From the NCBI GenBank assembly GCA_030295235.1, contig AP026136.1, positions 930,001 to 994,000 on the forward strand: DNA of 64,000 nucleotides, in the 5' to 3' direction. Under the pieces are notes generated by a model. It did no database searches and was not told the origin of the DNA. It saw nothing but the letters and a program-made list of their open reading frames with translations. Position 1 is the first letter of the stretch. Each line of letters opens with the position of its first letter. Of the stretch, positions 1,456 through 64,000 are shown piece by piece. Source of the stretch: Fistulifera solaris (Eukaryota). The position numbers and the translations under genes are program-made.

Positions 1456-2097
1456 TCATGAGTACTTGTGCCGTTTGCGTTCTGTTTCTGATGGTCCTCC
1501 TGATTGTCGTCTCATTGTAGCTACAACCCCAACTTTCAAGCCTTCATCTTGACTGGTTGAAAAGATACTTTTCTCCTTAATTTTCCTTTTCTTTTGAAAT
1601 GATTGCCAGGACTTCTGCTTCTTCTCCGACTCGATCTCCTTCATCTCTTGACGGTGTTTGCTTTTTAATGTTTTTATCGCTCGACGCTTACGATTTTTCT
1701 CAGCTTCTGTATCATTATCGCGCGGAATCAAATGATCGGGTATCTGAAACTCCTTGACTTTTTTCGAGGCCTTTATGGGTTCTGCTGGCTCACCTTCGGC
1801 TCGAGGGATTGGAAGAGCATGGGTGTCCTGTTCGCCGAGCTGTGTCCCAGATAGATCTGTTTGCCCAACAGAGGTCTCAACTGCGGCTTCTAAAGCCTTT
1901 TCAAGAATATCCGGCTCAAATTTTGTTGTCGATCTCTTTTCGCTCTCTAATGATTGTTTAGTAATAGAGAGAAGTTCTAAAAGGTCTGATTTCAGGGAGA
2001 GCAACGCCTCGTCGGTCGGAGATGCCCCCAACAGCTGCTCTACATCGGCCAGCTGGTTCTGATATTCTCGAATTTGCTCTGCAATCTCGTCGGCCAT
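1456..2097 (-). CDS. SPF30/SMNDC1-like splicing factor, apparently without Tudor domain
   Basis: N-terminal 'EYQNQLADVEQLL...LKSDLLELL' helix and C-terminal 'KQKSWQSF...SIFST...KVGV' resemble SPF30 termini. Confidence 0.65.
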   Translation of the reverse strand: MADEIAEQIREYQNQLADVEQLLGASPTDEALLSLKSDLLELLSITKQSLESEKRSTTKFEPDILEKALEAAVETSVGQTDLSGTQLGEQDTHALPIPRAEGEPAEPIKASKKVKEFQIPDHLIPRDNDTEAEKNRKRRAIKTLKSKHRQEMKEIESEKKQKSWQSFQKKRKIKEKSIFSTSQDEGLKVGVVATMRRQSGGPSETERKRHKYS

Positions 2098-2571
2098 AGC
2101 TTTGTAATGCTCAGTGCGCTTTCAATGAATAATTACCTCGTGTTATTGCTTAGCTCTTGTTTTTCGCACCCAACTCGCGTCTCGGTTCGGCGTTTCCTGA
2201 AAACTGAAACGCACCTATCACAGACGACGGTCAGAACCTGACATGCTATGTCTGCGTTTCATATCATAAAATCCGTACTATTTTAGCCATTTTTTACATG
2301 ATTGATGTTCAGATGTAGCTATTTCACGCAAATTACTCTCAAACACCAAGCACTCATTATCTAAAGTCTCTGTGACGCGTCTAAATCGCACCACCAACGA
2401 AATGGCTCGACCTAGCTATTCAAAGATTATCAGTACAAACTCCATTTACAGCGTCCGGGATAATAGGCTTTGGCCTTCTCTAGACCTCAGACCAAAGCTA
2501 GAAACCAGATGAGCATGGGGGGATTTATGTCGACACAGTACTCTCTGCTTGCCTGCTTCTGTAGAAGCAAG

Positions 2572-5500
2572 TTATAGAGCTAACACGGAGCTCGATTTGG
2601 CTCCCCCTGTTCGTCCGCACAGCTCCTTTATCAGCCTTGCTAAAAAGGAGCCTCTTCCAAAGAGCCAATTTTTAGTTTTCGCTGCCAAACCTGTTCCTAC
2701 TTTGGTGGCCACAAGCGACGTTCCGCAATCGTCGATGAAAATTTTTGGAAAGAACAATTTGCGCGCTGTGTCAAGCCAAAGGACAGTTGAGCTGAGCATT
2801 GCAATATAAATGATATCTTCGATGCTGATTGCTTCCGTTTGAAATACCTGCTGAAATGGAGGCGCAAAGACAATTAAAAACTGCCCCACCATGCTCAAAC
2901 CAACTGCCCAAATGAAAGCCATGTTCTTCAGTTTTGCAAGAAGGACAACGTTAGGTACCACAGGACGTTAAACCTCCTCAAAATATCTTAAAATGATACT
3001 GGAAATACTTACTCCAGAGACTGAAATTTCGTAAAAACACTTATTGGCCGATCGACATACGTACGCATTGAAAAGATCGCAGTTGACAAACGTCATGAAT
3101 GTCATCGTCGTGTCTCGCTTCGAAACGTTGCCGTCTTCCAATTCATGCGAGAAAACTGGCAAAAGAATCAATGTTGGTGAGACGTGTGGGTAGGATGATC
3201 GCTTCCTGTTTAGCATCGTTTGCGAAAATTTACCTTTTAATGTCAGAAACAGAATAAGGACTGAACTTGTTATGGCACGCAATAGTAAGGCTCTCGTTAC
3301 AATAGGGTCATTAGAGCGCCTCGGTTTCGCCTCTAAAATGGCGTCAGAGACGGGTTCAACTCCAAGGCTTTGTGCAGGAGGACCATCCATGACAACATTG
3401 ATCCACAGAATTTGCATGGCATTCAAAGGCGGTGGCAAACCCAGCGCGGTAGCCATGCCAGCCAGGGATAGTGCCGCGAAGGATGTGCTTAATTGGAAAG
3501 CAAGGAAGCAGCGTATATTGAAAAATATCCCTTTCCCCTCTCTGATGGCAGTCGTTATGGTGCTGAAATTGTCATCGGCAAGTACCACGTCGGCAGCTTC
3601 TTTAGCAACATCAGTGCCCTTTCCCATAGCTATTCCTACATCCGAAGCCTTTAGCGAGAGAGCGTCGTTTACTCCGTCGCCGGTCATTGCTACGATTTCG
3701 CCACTCCTTTGCACTTTTTTAAACAAGGTAAGAGAATGGTCGAACTCAATGGTTCACACGAGTTGCATCACTACGTACGTGCTCGAACAATGGCGAGTTT
3801 GTGCCGTGGAACTACACGGTAGAAAACTCGCACATTTAAAATACTAAATGGCAGATTCTCGGGTGGTATCGCATCGAGCTCAGCCCCACTCAGCGACTCC
3901 GTGACGCCATTCTCGACATCGTTAGACGACAAAAGTAGATCACTAAGGCCATCTACTAAGAACTCAGGGTCGATGTCTCCAATGATGCCACACCGCTTAG
4001 CAATTGCAATGGCTGTTTCCTTCGAGTCGCCGGTCACCATCATCACTTTTACGCCTCCCGCCCGTAATTTCCGGATAGACTCAGAGACGCCCTCGCGTGG
4101 AGGGTCCTCCATTCCCATGAGTCCAGCAAATGTCAAGTGTCCCAATGTTCGGCCAAATGCGAAAGCAAGAACCCGAAGTCCACTTGCGGCCATACGCCGA
4201 GACTGAGAAAGCACAAGTGCTCTGTCGTCTTCGGCAAGATTGTCCGATGCGCCATTTGGGAGAACAAAGGACACACACTCGCCCAACACCTTCTCAGGCA
4301 TTCCCTTGACAAAATAAAGACTCCCATCAGCAGACAACCGACTCCCTCGTTTTGGAGGTGTTTGCACGGAACACGCGTCTGTAAATGTTTCGCAAACATG
4401 CATTCCGTTCACCGGCCTAGCCCTAACTTCCATGCATTTCCTATCACTCGTAAACGGCACTTCCTGAAGTCGATGATACTGAGGCCTAGGATCAGGAACA
4501 CCAGTCTTAGCCGCCGCTACTAATAGCGCCAGTTCTGTAGGTTGACCAGAAAGCGTACCACCCGTGTGACCTTCGGCCTCAGCGTCAATGCATTCAACAA
4601 GCGTTGCATTATTACAAAGACAAGCAGTGTTCAAAAGAGCATGCAGCGCCTTAAATTCGGCAAAGTCAACTTGTTGTGCTTTATAGGAAGCCACTCGCTG
4701 CTCGCCCGAAGGACTTAACCATGTCAGCTTCCCAGAATGAACCCCATAGCCGACACCTGTATAAGTGAAGTTGGTCTGAGGCCATGCAAGAGTGAACATA
4801 CTTCGAACCGTCATCTCGTTTTGCGTGAGAGTTCCCGTTTTATCTGACGCTACAGATGTTATGCAACCTAGTGACTCCACAACTGGAAGCTTCTTTACAA
4901 TCGCTTTGTAGCGCGCCATTCTCAACACACCCAAGGCCAATGTAACAGTGACACAAATCGGAAGACCTTCTGGTATAGCAGCAACCGCAAGACTAACAGC
5001 CACCGTGAGCGTTTCTAACAATGGTCGACCCTTACGCCATCCCCATAGGCCAATCACAACAATGGCAAGTGAACTGAAGAACGCGAGTCTTTGTCCTAGC
5101 TCGTCGATTTTAACTTGAAGAGGTGACTTTCGACTGGCTACTTGACCCAACTCCATCGAAATCTTGCCAAACTCAGTCGAACAGCCGACAGCAAGAACGA
5201 TTGCTCTGGCGCGACCAGATATCACCATGGTTCCAGCAAAGGCGACGTTCTCCTGTTGGGTCAACAGAGGATTTGGCGGTAAGCGAAGTCCTTCACCGGT
5301 TTTGCCGACAGGGTGGTTTTCACCTGTTAGCGACGACTCGTCCACCATGAGCTCCACCGAGTCTACTATTCTACAATCGGCGGGGACCCGACTAATGCGC
5401 GTTGAGATACAGACAGAACATTTGTAAGCAATCGCCAAACAAACTTACTCTCCAGTGGATAAAATGACAAGGTCTCCAATCACAAGGTCAACGGCCAGAA

Positions 5501-7953: not shown

Positions 7954-8528
7954 GATCTTTATTCACTATGTGATTTATGCGCGGCGGGAGTTTTCGCAAC
8001 AGACCAAAGAAATTGCAACGTCCAACTTTCAAAATCACTTGAACTAGAAACAGGTTCGTTAATACAGACTCTAATCCAAGTATTGCCTCACGAGAAGCTC
8101 GTTGCTTGTCGCGTTTCGGAACTCGGAACGCTTTTGTTTTTTCGTGGCCGCTTTTCCCATTGTGAGCGAAGATTTTGCCGGATCTTTCCTTCAAGAAAGG
8201 ACGGGTTCTTGCATTACTTGTACGACATTTACCATGACTGAATCCAGTCATGGCAAAGTGCTGCCTACACTCTGGGATTATAGTTAAACTTGAATAGGCT
8301 ATAAAATCTAGGCGCAAATTGCAACCGTGGTTTACAGTCGATAGCATGACATTCTATCCTACTGGCTAATGATTATTGCTACTACCGATCGATATATGGA
8401 CTAACGATCAAACGTCGTAAGGTTGTTCATTGCCTTGTCGGAGAAACACACCGACGAACATCAATCAATTGATACCAACCATATCAAGGAAAACCAGTTA
8501 CAAAAACTGTCTCGTGCAGAATGTAAAA

Positions 8529-27600: not shown

Positions 27601-27710
27601 CCCGCCATTCCCCAACTTTCCCCGCCATTCCCCAACTTTCCCCGCCATTCCCCAACTTTCCCCGCCATTCCCCAACTTTCCCCGCCATTCCCCGTACTTC
27701 CCCAGATTTC
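27601..27710. repeat. 20-bp tandem repeat (CCCGCCATTCCCCAACTTTC) x4 plus degenerate copies
   Basis: Four exact copies at 27601-27680. Confidence 0.95.
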
Positions 27711-28254: not shown

Positions 28255-28402
28255 TTCCCCGGATATCCCCGATAATCCCCGGGATTCTCGGGGATTCTCG
28301 GGGATTCTCGGGATTCCCCGAGATTCCCGGGGATTCTCGGGGATTCCCGGGGATTCCCCAACTTTCCCCAACATTCCCCATCTTTCCCCGAAATTCTGGA
28401 AT
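28255..28402. repeat. Degenerate ~10-bp periodic C/G-rich tandem repeat (GGGGATTCTC/CCCC-type units)
   Basis: Runs of ggggattctc/ggggattccc grading into ccccaacttt units shared with the 27601 array. Confidence 0.9.
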
Positions 28403-32753: not shown

Positions 32754-33030
32754 CATGACTGAAATGCGAGTCGTGTCGAAAAAGTCGCCTTCAATTTGGG
32801 GCTATAGTAAATAGAGAAGACCACTACTCGCTAGGCTTTTCGTCATTACAAGTACCAGGTACCTGGTATGGTACATCCATCCGTGCATTGAAAATGTTGT
32901 CCAAAGGTAGTTTTATCGCGACAGCGACCTGTGCAGCTCAACAACAAAAACATTCTGGAATGAACGGACAGTGACTCATGACTGAATTGCAGTCTTGGTA
33001 AAGTTGATACAACTTGGGACTGTACTGTAT
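32754..33030 (+). repeat. Degenerate tandem dimer of the 226-bp family
   Basis: CATGACTG hairpins at 32754 and 32977 (223 bp apart). The first copy keeps cgaaaaa, ctatagtaaata and aggcttttcg. Confidence 0.75.
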
Positions 33031-40594: not shown

Positions 40595-40870
40595 CATCAT
40601 TCGACTATAGGCTGGAATGTCATTTGACGATGATTCCGCGATTGCATTGCAGTCACGAACAAAATCTTTCTCTAGCAAAAAAGATGAGTCTGTGCTCAAC
40701 TAACTTTCGACCTATTCTTCTAGTATTACTAGCTGCGAATCCTTCTCGTAAAAGCGAAGTTGCAAAGGAACTCAATACGCGAAAAGCCTCCCCGACAACA
40801 CTGTTTGGGAAAGTACTATAACCTCGAAGTGTTGGTCGTTTTTCGCCATGACTAAAAGATTCAGTCATGA
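40595..40870 (-). repeat. Degenerate copies of the 226-bp family upstream of TOR
   Basis: Reverse complement from 40869 reads catgactgaatcttttagtcatggcgaaaaacgaccaacac...tatagta...aggcttttcg. A second copy from 40657 reads cgtgactgcaatgcaatcgcgg...ctatagt. Confidence 0.75.
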
Positions 40871-60622: not shown

Positions 60623-60883
60623 GGCTCTTCTCAAGGCCAAATATTCGCAGCAACCACAATGCGATTTCAGTTTCGATAATACTCAATGTGTCGCCTTTCT
60701 TTTGCCGACTACTCTCCCTCTTAATTCTTTTCCTATTTCTATTGTTACCGATTAGCTTGAAAAGAGTGAGTCAGTGCGCTCGTTGTTGAGCACATCGTTG
60801 TTGTCGATTCAACTTTCCGACTGAATTCCAATCACGAGTCTGGCAGTTCTGAAACCTTTACCAGTTACCGACGCGACGCGAAC

Positions 60884-61052
60884 GACCGGTACGGTACCGT
60901 ATGTACCTGGTACCGGTACTTGTACCGGTACCGGTACCAGTAAACCAACTCCGGGTGTACCTGGTACATCGGTACTATTATCCGGCAACCATACCATGTT
61001 GGTGGATGGTGATGGTGGATGGTGATGGTGGATGGTCATGGTGGATGGTGGA
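60884..61052. repeat. Low-complexity GTACCG tract followed by (GATGGT/GGT) microsatellite
   Basis: Directly visible. Confidence 0.85.
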
Positions 61053-61213
61053 CTCAATTGGAACGTCCGTCGTAAGGATTACATAGGAAATTATTGAACC
61101 GTAGCGACATTTTATCCAAAAGGTCCCTCGTTTCGACCAATCAGATGAGTACTTCTAATCGCTCTAGCCAATCAGATGGCTAGTTCCAATTGCTCTTTCA
61201 CTTTTCAAAAAAC

Positions 61214-61971
61214 GTATTCATGACTGAAGTGCAGTCGTGGCGAAAAACGGTCAACACCATTGTCTATAGTAAATACGCAGACAACGTTTCGCAAGGCTTT
61301 TCGACATACAAATATTAAGGTGTGTAGTACAAAACGCTGCTAAAGTCTATTTCACTACAATAACGACAAATGGTTTCCAAAACAATCTGCTAAACGAACG
61401 TACCTGGTATTGTAGGCAGCATTGTCGCTCGAACGAATGTGTATTCATGACTGAAGTGCCGTCGTGGCGAAAAACGGTCAACACCATTGTCTATAGTAAA
61501 TACGCAGACAACGTTTCGCAAGGCTTTTCGACATACAAATATTAAGGCGTGTAGTACAAACGCTGCTAAAGTCTATTTCACTACAATAACGACAAATGGT
61601 TTCAAAACAATCTGCTAAACGAACGTACCTGGTATTGTAGGCAGCATTGTCGCTCGAACGAATGTGTATTCATGACTGAAGTGCCGTCGTGGCGAAAAAC
61701 GGTCAACACCATTGTCTATAGTAAATACGCAGACAACGTTTCGCAAGGCTTTTCGACATACAAATATTAAGGCGTGTAGTACAAACGCTGCTAAAGTCTA
61801 TTTCACTACAATAACGACAAATGGTTTCAAAACAATCTGCTAAACGAACGCATTACCTGGTATTGTAGGCAGCATTGTCGCTCGAACGAATGTGTATTCA
61901 TGACTGAAGTGCAGTCGTGGCGAAAAACGGTCAACACCATTGTCTATAGTAAATACGCAGACAACGTTTCG
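61214..61971 (+). repeat. Tandem array of ~226-bp unit, ~3.3 near-identical copies
   Basis: Unit starts (CATGACTGAAGTGC) at 61219, 61446, 61671 and 61899; spacings 227, 225, 228 bp. Confidence 0.96.
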
Positions 61972-62648
61972 TCGCTTCGCTCACGACTTTTGCAATTTCC
62001 ATTATTTGGTCCACCTAAGGTTTATACGTCCTTAGGTCCACCAGCATGGTACCGTACCGGTACGGTACCAGTACACGTATTATGCCTATTATCCTTCAAA
62101 TTTTGTAAACTTGTCTCCGACTCAACTAAAATCTCTCCCGGATATATAGACAAAAGAATACGAAGTATTCATTTCCGTGCAATCGAATACAATGGGAAGT
62201 CGTTTCACCATGAATGTCAATAGCTCGCTTCATTTGATCAAGGTCACACCAGTGTGTTGATCTCGTCCGAAATTTCAAGATTCAAACTCATTATTTGCTC
62301 TTCTTAGAATTTTTAATGGAACCTTTGTAGTTGGCTCCTGTTTTACGAGGGAGACTTCCGTTAGGTCTCCAACCAGGGTGAACCTCTTCCGATAGCTCTC
62401 CCGTTAGGAGAGACGTTAACTGACTACATTCAACTTTACAGTAGAGTACGCGCCATTGGATGTGGTACTAATTACTTAAAGGCCTTCCATCCATCATTAG
62501 TTCTACTTAGGTCACGCACAATAACCGCACAATCGTTCGCGTTGTGCGTTTGTTCCGTTCCGACTGCCGACAAGATGATCAGAACGCTGCATTCCTTATT
62601 GTCATAGTTGCCCTTCCGTTCCTACTGTTGCTCTTTTACAACATTAAC

Positions 62649-64000
62649 ATGTCGATCATTGAAACGAAGGAGCGACGATCATTCGTCACGATTATGCAAA
62701 AATATGGGGCACTTCCTCCAACCGGTCCGTATGATTTTGAAAAGTTTCTCTATGACAAACCGATCCCTGAGGATGATCACGAGGAGCTTCTCCGCAGCAT
62801 CGCTTTTGTGTAATGCGATCGAAAGCTCTTACGAGATGTCAGCAAGCACGGAGAAAGCCCTTGCTACGTGTGCACTTGCTGCAAAACGTTCTCACTTAAG
62901 TTCAAGGAAGAAAACGGCGAACTTCGATTGCTACACGACCATCCTAGTACTAACTTCAGGCACAGTTTGTTTTGCACTCCAACAAACGACCTCCCAAAGG
63001 ACTGCCGCAGAAAATCAATGATAGTGCAGAACATTCCTGCTGTTCAAGACTTCTTCAAAACATGCTTCCAGGCACCAAACTTCGACAGTCATGCTACTCG
63101 CAAGAATCTCAACGCCGTCCTCAGGAAAGAGGGTTTCGACATCGAAGTTGGCCCGACAATGCATTCAAATCTCAAGAAACACTTCCGTGAGGTCTACCCG
63201 AAAGGATTTGTTGATGTACAATGAGCTGTTGGCCCAGTATCTTCGGAAATATGTCGAGCTAAATCCAAATGCCTCCGTCAATTTAGAAACTGACCAGAAC
63301 TCATGCTTTTTTCGGTCAACTGTGTTCATTGAGAATGCCGCGCACTTCTTTAGAAATGCCTGCATTCCTGCAATCTTTTAGACGGAACACACATCCGTAT
63401 ACCCCGAACACGATGGAATTGGAGTCCCGATCATAGGGGTCGATGGAAATGGAAGTAACATTCCACTTGGTTTTGGGTTGATTCCCTCGGAAAACAAGCA
63501 AGGGATGATATATATCCTTCTCATGATGTATCAAGCTGGGTTCAATTTCGAAGAGTTTCCAGTATTCACTGACCGAGGACACATTCTCGCCGCTGTCCGA
63601 GCGTTGGCAGAACATTATGGACTGGTTGTTTCCGTGAAGTATTGCTTGATTCATATTCTTCAAACATTTACCATCTATTCAATATCAATCAACGATCGCT
63701 GAGAGGGCAGAGCGGTCGCTTGGTTTATGCCAGCGAGATGCAAAGCTCCAGATGTTAACGCCTTCTTGGATGCTGCGAAGAAGCTTGTCAAAGCGCTTCC
63801 ACAAATTGAAGAAAACGAAACTCTTAGTACCGGTGCGCGAATTGTTATCTATGTTCTTGGGACAATTCATCCTACTCATTGGACTGTGTTTGGAAATACA
63901 CCGAGTCAACATGAATCTATGTGGGAGCCCCTATATTTTACCTATCTAGCTGAAGTGAATGGCTTCACAGAGATAAGTGGAGACGTCGACGAATGGAGGT
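62649..64000 (+). mobile_element. Mutator/MULE transposase gene, frameshifted, 3'-truncated by window edge
   Basis: Cys/His N-terminal region (CTCC...RHSLFC), 'YLRKYVELNPNA', 'FLDGTH', 'GVDGN', 'PSENK', 'FTDRG', 'YCLIH' typical of the MULE DDE domain; split over 5 or more frames. Confidence 0.82.

What the first reader, a model, noticed from the sequence alone, without database searches (positions are those of the whole stretch)
61214..61971. Young ~226-bp tandem array with conserved hairpin architecture beside a MULE transposase; best-preserved member of a dispersed family
Seen: 3.3 near-identical units. Each opens with a stem-loop CATGACTG-AAGTG-CAGTCGTG (one mismatch in the two middle copies), then CGAAAA...TTTTCG complementary arms bracketing a central CTATAG palindrome. 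The same architecture recurs, highly diverged, at 8233, 22711, 32754, 32977, 40869(-) and 40657(-). Stem pairing largely persists while loops change (AATC, AAATG, AATTG, AATCTTT), sometimes via G-T pairs. Inference: the structure is selected or mechanistically required. Candidates are a non-autonomous element or satellite spread by transposition or rolling-circle copying, transposase-binding subterminal repeats of the neighbouring MULE, or a structured ncRNA/cis-element. I do not recognise it as a described family.
Basis: partly seen in the sequence, partly recalled or inferred. Interest (0 to 1): 0.78.

Follow-up and report, generated by a model that had tools for sequence, protein, structure and literature searches.

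The report
Repeat array carried by Dada-like transposon
The tandem array is real, but it is cargo inside a small, separate cut-and-paste transposon of a diatom, not part of the neighbouring MULE, and its repeat unit comes from an old, very common intergenic repeat whose hairpin shows no sign of being kept for its structure.

Summary
The array is real (3.3 copies, 225-228 bp, 98%). It lies outside the MULE, which has its own 130-bp TIRs and 9-bp target duplication. It fills a 1.1-kb non-autonomous transposon (60984-62086) with ~31-bp TIRs and an exact 8-bp duplication, TATTATCC. Array-free sisters exist, and 5-kb copies encode a protein with Dada-type motif order and spacing and an inserted exonuclease. 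Published Dada elements lack TIRs, make 6-7-bp duplications and target small-RNA genes, so this is a variant. The unit belongs to an old intergenic family with 677 exact hairpin matches. Carrier-borne units form one clade, but 9 young copies lack carrier sequence. The stem shows no covariation, the unit folds no better than shuffles, and the CGAAAA/TTTTCG arms persist in 7 of 101 units. How the old family spread is unresolved; no Helitron, Merlin or recombinase partner was found. This scan described what seems the same family four times on other DNA of this genome. The carrier link did not appear in my look-ups.

The parts
60976..60983 (+). Left copy of the 8-bp target-site duplication TATTATCC
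60984..61061 (+). Left TIR of the carrier (GGCAACCATACCATGTTGGTGGA...CTCAATTGG), split by a TGGTGGA/TGGTGA microsatellite expansion at 61000-61052
   Evidence: same TIR without the expansion in L045 and L047
61062..61213 (+). Left subterminal body of the carrier (positions up to 177 of the 1186-bp array-free copy L047), with two CCAATCAGA motifs
   Evidence: 75% identity
61214..61971 (+). Tandem array, 3.3 units of 225-228 bp; captured member of the old intergenic repeat family
61218..61278 (+). Conserved core of unit 1: 23-bp imperfect palindrome, variable 12-14-bp spacer, ACACT box, CTATAGT box. Cores of the other units start at 61445, 61670 and 61898
61972..62007 (+). Right subterminal remnant of the carrier (matches L047 from position 1129; positions about 620-1128, present in sister copies, are missing here)
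62008..62086 (-). Right TIR (GGTCCACC...AGCATGGTA...TTATGCC), interrupted by a short insert with a GGTCCACC duplication and by a GTACC-type insert
62087..62094 (+). Right copy of the target-site duplication TATTATCC
62340..62478 (+). Not part of the array element: 9-bp TSD GTTTTACGA (62340-62348) and 130-bp left TIR (62349-62478) of the independent MULE. Its right TIR and TSD lie beyond the window at L031:6077-6215
   Evidence: Pfam MULE E=0.002
8232..8290 (+). Solo old core
   Evidence: 37 bits
22710..22760 (+). Eroded solo old core
   Evidence: 39 bits
32753..33020 (+). Old two-core array (cores at 32754 and 32977, spacing 223)
40600..40870 (-). Old two-core array (cores at 40869 and 40657, the latter weak)

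Best explanation
Two layers. (1) An old intergenic repeat family: a ~60-bp core (palindrome, variable spacer, two short boxes) alone or repeated with a ~160-bp body at a 200-240-bp period. It has an estimated 2,000-4,000 cores in this allodiploid-like diatom genome and turns over quickly. (2) One subfamily was captured into a 1.19-kb non-autonomous derivative of a Dada-like DDE transposon, replacing carrier positions ~178-620. The carrier moved it by cut-and-paste with 8-bp duplications, and the unit then expanded or homogenised in place by slippage or unequal exchange. The window copy is one such insertion; the MULE inserted independently 245 bp away. Shown: element ends, TSD, sister copies with and without units, one clade of carrier-borne units, the MULE's own ends, no covariation. 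Inferred: the capture event, mobilisation by the 5-kb partner, in-place expansion, Dada affinity. For the old family I favour leftovers of a non-autonomous mobile element whose core was read as double-stranded DNA by a protein, not as a hairpin. That step is weak (about 50%).
For: Exact 8-bp TSD in the window, L110 and L115 and L047; in L045 beyond a 13-bp TIR duplication. 40 TIR-pattern matches, 0 reversed control. Six carrier copies hold units (window, L032, L033, L035, L036, L048); L044, L045, L046, L114, L115 and L110 do not. Window, L032 and L036 share the left junction sequence. The 11 units closest to the window's all have carrier markers nearby, none of the other 90. The 10 full-length carrier-borne units form one side of a branch among 91 rows, 100/100. 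The homeologous gap on C11 has neither carrier nor MULE. Partner protein: weak DUF6729 and 3'-5' exonuclease hits. CCCC spacing 36, C4-D1 143-173, D1-D2 70 in four proteins, against 35, 135, 68 for Dada-U6_DR; exonuclease between the second D and DxxH as in Dada-1_ES and Dada-1_LB (PMC3706591). MITEs that captured a tandem repeat are known (miDNA4, via PMC12628747).
Against: 9 young-type short copies among the top 30 loci have no detectable carrier sequence, so the carrier is not the only route of spread. L044 has no TSD; L111/L112 show 7-8 bp; the first element of L114 has no match. L032, L033 and L035 show only one carrier end. The homeologous gap holds its own old three-core array on the other strand: chance at about 1 gap in 8 (23 of 180), but it could mean these gaps favour cores. 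The empty site could not be aligned to the base. No direct sequence comparison with a published Dada transposase was possible, and the DDE part of the model is of low confidence.
Confidence: 0.7

Rival explanations
1. The old family is a non-autonomous Helitron/Helentron (HINE-like) whose hairpin-plus-CTATAG core is a rolling-circle end. Arrays are concatemers, and young units inserted into the carrier by their own transposition.
For: Hairpin about 25 nt before CTATAG|T; head-to-tail arrays; young copies without carrier; L048 shows a second, different insertion into the carrier with a 140-bp duplication.
Against: Arrays tend to start at the hairpin and run past CTATAG into a tail, so CTATAG is not their end. 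Conservation fades gradually on both sides, with no sharp boundary. No short TIR pair was seen by eye. No PIF1 match (control rang) and no Helitron_like_N match (control silent); both searches are of limited sensitivity.
Confidence: 0.2
2. The core is a host-selected double-stranded protein-binding module (promoter element, or origin or boundary site) that duplicates locally; the carrier merely picked one up.
For: Palindrome and boxes are kept while the spacer varies. Cores avoid ORFs (1 of 45 loci against 441 of 700 random places). They are scarce between convergent genes (1 of 41 against 22 of 139 gaps, p=0.03; 3 of 34 against 45 of 194, p=0.07). The period stays at 200-239 bp in 90 of 101 units.
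Against: Between homeologs the palindrome is 85% identical and the box 79%, against 81% for flanks, and 13 of 30 cores have no aligned counterpart (rough). No strand preference relative to neighbouring genes (7:8; 8:10). Short parts of the published F. solaris centromere/ARS motifs match 0 of 101 units. Gene calls were crude and the homeologs are not independent.
Confidence: 0.15
3. The core is a tyrosine-recombinase-type crossover site; bodies and gene cassettes enter and leave at cores.
For: Two 8-9-bp arms around a 5-bp centre. Arrays often have one more core than bodies. One homeolog-specific LRR-like gene insert ends at a core. Spacers differ more (70%) than flanks between homeologs. Earlier notes report Cryptons in this genome.
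Against: Centres differ within single arrays. The second gene insert does not end at a core. PF00589 found nothing, though that model may miss Cryptons.
Confidence: 0.07
4. The unit is a structured non-coding RNA or ribozyme.
For: The 23-nt stem alone folds well (z -4.2). One-sided changes give G.T more often than A.C (23 against 13).
Against: No covariation. The whole unit is not more stable than shuffles. Units 2 and 3 break the stem (z -1.6). No Rfam match.
Confidence: 0.05
5. The array is a subterminal transposase-binding array of the adjacent MULE.
For: Proximity only (about 380 bp).
Against: The MULE has perfect 130-bp TIRs and a 9-bp TSD that exclude the array, and its right end has no array. 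The array has its own TIRs and TSD.
Confidence: 0.02

Closest known systems
Dada superfamily (Kojima & Jurka 2013, PMC3706591; main text read up to the reference list), especially the exonuclease-bearing Dada-1_ES and Dada-1_LB
   Same: Order and spacing of CCCC finger, D, D, DxxH, E; DEDD exonuclease between the second D and DxxH; C-terminal Cys cluster; autonomous length about 5.1 kb (published 4.7-11 kb).
   Different: About 31-bp TIRs (published: none), 8-bp TSD (published: 6-7), no tRNA or Rfam gene at the insertion sites tested, and abundant 1.2-kb non-autonomous copies. The paper names no target for the exonuclease-bearing members, so their ends may be undefined rather than different.
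MITEs or foldback elements with internal tandem repeats: Xenopus miDNA4 (seen only as passages of the review PMC12628747) and Drosophila Tetris TIR-220 (PMC4079207, abstract only)
   Same: A non-autonomous TIR element carrying a variable number of tandem units; the repeat also exists outside the element. miDNA4 is proposed to have captured a pre-existing repeat; Tetris units are about 220 bp.
   Different: Different superfamily and host. Here the units are central, not inside the TIRs as in Tetris, and come from a far larger pre-existing family.
Helitron1 / HLE2 (Helentron, HINE, FoHeli) non-autonomous elements (PMC11417382, PMC5148889; passages)
   Same: Short hairpin a fixed distance from a CTAG-like word; tandem arrays; dispersed copies.
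   Different: No fixed terminus at CTATAG, no short TIR pair seen, no partner found.
F. solaris centromere/ARS motifs (bioRxiv 10.1101/2021.11.10.468027, section 7 and passages; supplements closed)
   Same: Dispersed, clustered non-coding motifs; one contains AATTCAGTCG, like the right arm of the core.
   Different: Short parts of the three motifs match 0 of 101 units; motifs 1 and 3 mark another repeat, seen at 4 places in my loci.

Membership tests
Dada superfamily (carrier's partner) | DDE triad with DxxH after the second D; N-terminal CCCC finger at Dada spacing | tested here: met
   spacings 36 / 143-173 / 70 against 35 / 135 / 68 in Dada-U6_DR. Motifs were assigned by pattern, not by alignment to a Dada protein.
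Dada superfamily (carrier's partner) | DEDD exonuclease between second D and DxxH (Dada-1_ES/LB type) | tested here: met
   Pfam PF01612 E=2.7e-11; position; WRN exonuclease best fold match, E=3e-11
Dada superfamily (carrier's partner) | No terminal inverted repeats | tested here: not met
   About 31-bp TIRs
Dada superfamily (carrier's partner) | 6-7-bp TSD | tested here: not met
   8 bp in window, L110, L115, L047, L045; 7-8 in L111/L112; none in L044
Dada superfamily (carrier's partner) | Insertion into tRNA/snRNA genes | tested here: not met
   0 tRNA in 14 sources; 0 Rfam matches in 18 sources; a split gene could be missed
Dada superfamily (carrier's partner) | Phylogenetic placement among Dada transposases | not testable with these tools
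   The paper's protein dataset was not among the supplements held as text
MULE subterminal repeats | Repeats lie inside the MULE's TIRs and TSD | tested here: not met
Merlin/IS1595 (GG-start TIR, 8-bp TSD; features recalled) | DDE_Tnp_IS1595 transposase as partner | tested here: not met
   0 matches, control rang; the 5-kb copies encode another protein
Helitron1 | 5' TC, 3' hairpin 10-12 nt before CTRR, A|T insertion | tested here: not met
   Hairpin about 25 nt before CTATAG; homology continues past it; no sharp end
HLE2/Helentron/HINE | Short TIR pair plus 3' stem-loop, T|T insertion | tested here: inconclusive
   Ends of the old family could not be fixed
Helitron-like elements | RepHel partner in the genome | tested here: inconclusive
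   PF14214 none, control silent; PF05970 none of 4 candidates
Crypton | 5-6-bp terminal direct repeats and a tyrosine recombinase partner | tested here: inconclusive
   PF00589 none; CryptonS TATGG termini (PMC3212892, passages) resemble the CCATAG box variant in 13 of 101 units only
Structured ncRNA | Covariation in the stem | tested here: not met
Structured ncRNA | Discrete transcript | not testable with these tools
   Only contigs of uncertain kind were offered

The most novel reading that the evidence does not exclude
The 60-bp core is a sequence-specific protein-binding or crossover site with thousands of copies that organises diatom intergenic DNA. It would drive exchange of spacers, bodies and sometimes whole genes (an LRR-like gene insert ends at a core in one homeolog), or serve as a sequence-defined promoter or origin module, and a TIR-bearing Dada variant now redistributes it.
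Probability: 0.12. Interest if true: 0.8.

Novelty: new variant of a known kind. Interest (0 to 1): 0.45.

Why it matters
A transposon that carries an internal tandem repeat is a known pattern, so the array itself is ordinary. Two things add value. First, a Dada-like, exonuclease-bearing transposase with clear TIRs, 8-bp duplications and apparently free targeting would widen the definition of Dada and bear on whether small-RNA targeting is derived; I found no such description in my searches. Second, the capture gives a well-bounded, recent sample of a very abundant undescribed diatom repeat. Its conserved bipartite core can be tested directly for protein binding, promoter or origin activity in a transformable alga.

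Tried and rejected
Rfam: no match. Whole-unit folding not above shuffles. Merlin, Helitron_like_N, Phage_integrase and PIF1 searches of the genome found nothing. DDE_Tnp_4 gave 24 Harbinger-type matches, but their flanks were not examined, so the lead that cores mark Harbinger ends is untested. Hairpin scans of viral and metagenome contigs gave 2 and 1 matches, with no box or body beside them; read as chance. Sequencing runs: no RNA holder listed. The three runs laid were contigs of uncertain kind from one study; 62020-62220 had no cover; neither says anything on expression. My early readings of a Helentron 3' end from the CCTAAGG hairpin at 62015-62035 and of a Merlin MITE were dropped once the full TIR, TSD and partner were found. 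A search for fixed ends of the old family through its tail motif (38 matches) and a GC-rich side module (8 places) gave no boundary; a FoHeli-like GCCTTCGGC motif occurred at 3 places only. The fold model of the partner is weak overall (mean pLDDT 54), and the Foldseek rows shown list only exonuclease-domain proteins. A search with the N-terminal region of P0002 returned only itself and P0001. DUF6729 occurs in 0 papers of the library. Sequence look-ups among earlier findings returned nothing.

Full report
Observation. Tandem Repeats Finder places an array at 61214-61971, period 225, 3.3 copies, 98% matches. The units are 227, 225 and 228 bp plus a 74-bp part. The stem-loop and its mismatch in units 2 and 3 are as described. 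Five of the six diverged sites score 26.6-39 bits with a core profile, against a best of 11.2 on reversed DNA; 40657 is weak. The wider 'architecture' does not hold: both CGAAAA/TTTTCG arms survive in 7 of 101 units and at 2 of the 6 sites, CTATAG in 47 of 101. The array is among the most homogeneous but not unique; the C2 array is 99.5% and the C40 array has 9 distinct units at 96-99.5%. An independent contig matches 60302-61122 without other letters, but no listed contig spans the array.

The MULE is a separate element. It has perfect 130-bp TIRs at 62349-62478 and L031:6077-6206, each flanked by GTTTTACGA. The array ends about 380 bp outside it.

The array has its own carrier. The DNA left of the array has 8 matches in the genome, the window included. 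The sisters L044, L045 and L047 are about 1.15-1.19 kb, bounded by ~31-bp inverted repeats beginning GGCAA, and hold no unit. In the window the same ends lie at 60984 and 62086, each interrupted by short inserts, between two copies of TATTATCC. Exact 8-bp duplications also flank L110, L115 and L047, and L045 beyond a 13-bp TIR duplication. L111/L112 show 7-8 bp, L044 none, and in L114 only the second element fits. The TIR pattern has 40 matches against 0 reversed; two of the 30 inspected lack the outer TIR and look like chance. Of 12 copies mapped, six hold units. Window, L032 and L036 share the left junction near carrier position 170-177. L033, L035 and L036 rejoin at 620-668, the window at 1129. 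L048 is a separate insertion with a 140-bp duplication. Among 101 core-to-core units in my loci, the 11 closest to the window's all have carrier markers nearby and none of the other 90 do. In a tree of the 91 units of 200-245 bp (10 dropped for length), the 10 carrier-borne ones form one side of a branch, 100/100. Against a carrier-only story: 9 short young-type copies among the top 30 loci have no carrier sequence. The genome behaves as an allodiploid (C1/C2 blocks align at 80-93%). The homeologous gap on C11 has no carrier and no MULE, but an old three-core array on the other strand.

The partner. 5-kb copies with the same TIRs (L110-L112) hold broken reading frames with a 3'-5' exonuclease (E=2.7e-11) and a weak DUF6729 match. 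The nearest protein, P0001, is 98% identical and labelled Fistulifera solaris by its source; 10 more relatives were found. In the four long proteins examined, a CxxC-36-CxxC finger, D, D, exonuclease, DxxH and RGTNxxE follow in order, with D1-D2 of 70. Dada-U6_DR has 35 and 68, and the exonuclease sits at the same place in Dada-1_ES and Dada-1_LB (PMC3706591). The model shows three strands and a helix at D1, as an RNase H fold would, but at low confidence; Foldseek returned exonuclease domains. Published Dada elements lack TIRs, make 6-7-bp duplications and sit in small-RNA genes. None of these three features is met here. I therefore call it Dada-like and do not file it as a member. Searches of the library showed no TIR-bearing Dada in the listings or passages seen; Repbase was not available.

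The repeat family. The exact hairpin pattern has 677 matches and 0 reversed. In 400 kb of continuous sequence, 30 cores scored 20 bits or more, of which 9 are exact matches, which scales to roughly 2,000-4,000 cores (my estimate; the region was chosen for density). The conserved part is palindrome, variable 12-14-bp spacer, ACACT, CTATAGT. Bodies are one family (96 of 101 linked above the null), and 90 of 101 periods fall at 200-239 bp. 45 of 125 cores have no body on either side by one reference. Old arrays often begin CATGACT|CATGACTG and end in a tail with CAGACGGAAATTCTG, but I found no sharp terminus.

Is the structure selected? Not detectably. On 126 cores (146 before collapsing near-copies; many picked by the exact pattern), 1049 of 1134 stem cells pair against 1051.4 +/- 2.5 shuffled, and 2 compensatory changes stand against 1.3. 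On 63 cores (60 of the 70 variant ones, 10 left out as poorly anchored, plus 3 window cores) 89.8% pair against 90.0%. One-sided changes give G.T 23 times and A.C 13 times, a mild lean in favour of pairing on the plus strand. The unit folds no better than shuffles. Between homeologs, 13 of 30 cores have no aligned counterpart; in the other 17 the palindrome is 85% identical, spacer 70%, box 79%, flanks 81%. That estimate is rough: pairs are counted from both sides and some alignments are spurious. Persistent pairing is thus shared descent of a palindrome. For a host role: cores avoid ORFs (1 of 45 against 441 of 700) and are scarce between convergent genes (p=0.03; p=0.07), with no strand preference.

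How it works. Shown: a non-autonomous TIR element with an 8-bp duplication holds the array. Inferred: an ancestor of it took up one or two units in place of its middle, most simply by template switching during gap repair. The 5-kb transposase moved it, and the unit was multiplied or homogenised at each site, since units cluster by array in the tree. This matches the miDNA4 model (PMC12628747, passages) and resembles Tetris (PMC4079207, abstract). For the old family the partner is unknown: Merlin, Helitron, recombinase and PIF1 profiles found nothing, with limited power. I favour decayed non-autonomous mobile DNA with a protein-read core, ahead of a Helitron-type end, a host module or a crossover site. 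The published centromere/ARS motifs are a different repeat; the preprint's supplements were closed, so overlap with its 16 centromere sequences is unchecked.

Earlier notes. They are not independent support. None of the lines shown mentions the carrier.

Verdict. A real array, wrongly tied to the MULE and to structural selection. It is captured satellite-like cargo of a Dada-like element with unexpected ends. New variant of a known kind; interest 0.45.

Noticed in passing
window 62349-64000 and L031:349-6206: Complete 5.86-kb MULE with perfect 130-bp TIRs and a 9-bp TSD. An independent contig differs from the window by 12 small indels and no substitutions and has depth 397 against 10-20 for single contigs nearby, suggesting an intact multi-copy element and indel errors in the assembly.
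   Followed up: partly
L164:3620-5600 and L188:5374-7627: LRR-like genes present in one homeolog only, each with a core about 300 bp upstream of the start. In L164 the insert ends at the core.
   Followed up: partly
L111/L112 (C39), L114 (C11), L113 (C4): Head-to-tail tandem copies of the Dada-like element: two 5-kb copies, two 1.2-kb copies, and three single ends at a 3.3-kb period.
   Followed up: partly
L046 (start of C25): A carrier copy broken off after about 600 bp and capped directly by GGGTTA telomere repeats.
   Followed up: no
L016:2222, L025:1321, L034:8133, L206:1112: Matches to the published F. solaris centromere/ARS motifs 1 and 3, three of four within 600 bp of a core. The loci were picked for cores, so this is no enrichment test.
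   Followed up: partly
L023, L016, L018, L165:5300-7000: A second repeat family built on CCAGA(A/T)TTTCTGG motifs; in L023 a unit fragment sits between two inverted arms of it, and L165 holds a long tandem array of it absent from the homeolog.
   Followed up: no
L201:2318-2830 (C11): Old three-core array on the minus strand in the gap homeologous to the window's array.
   Followed up: partly
window 27601-27694 and 28261-28396: Two decamer-based arrays (CCCGCCATTC/CCCAACTTTC and GGGATTCTCG types) about 570 bp apart.
   Followed up: no
window 60880-60960 and 62050-62078: GTACC/GGTAC palindromic micro-repeats flank the carrier and interrupt its right TIR; similar runs recur in many intergenic loci.
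   Followed up: no
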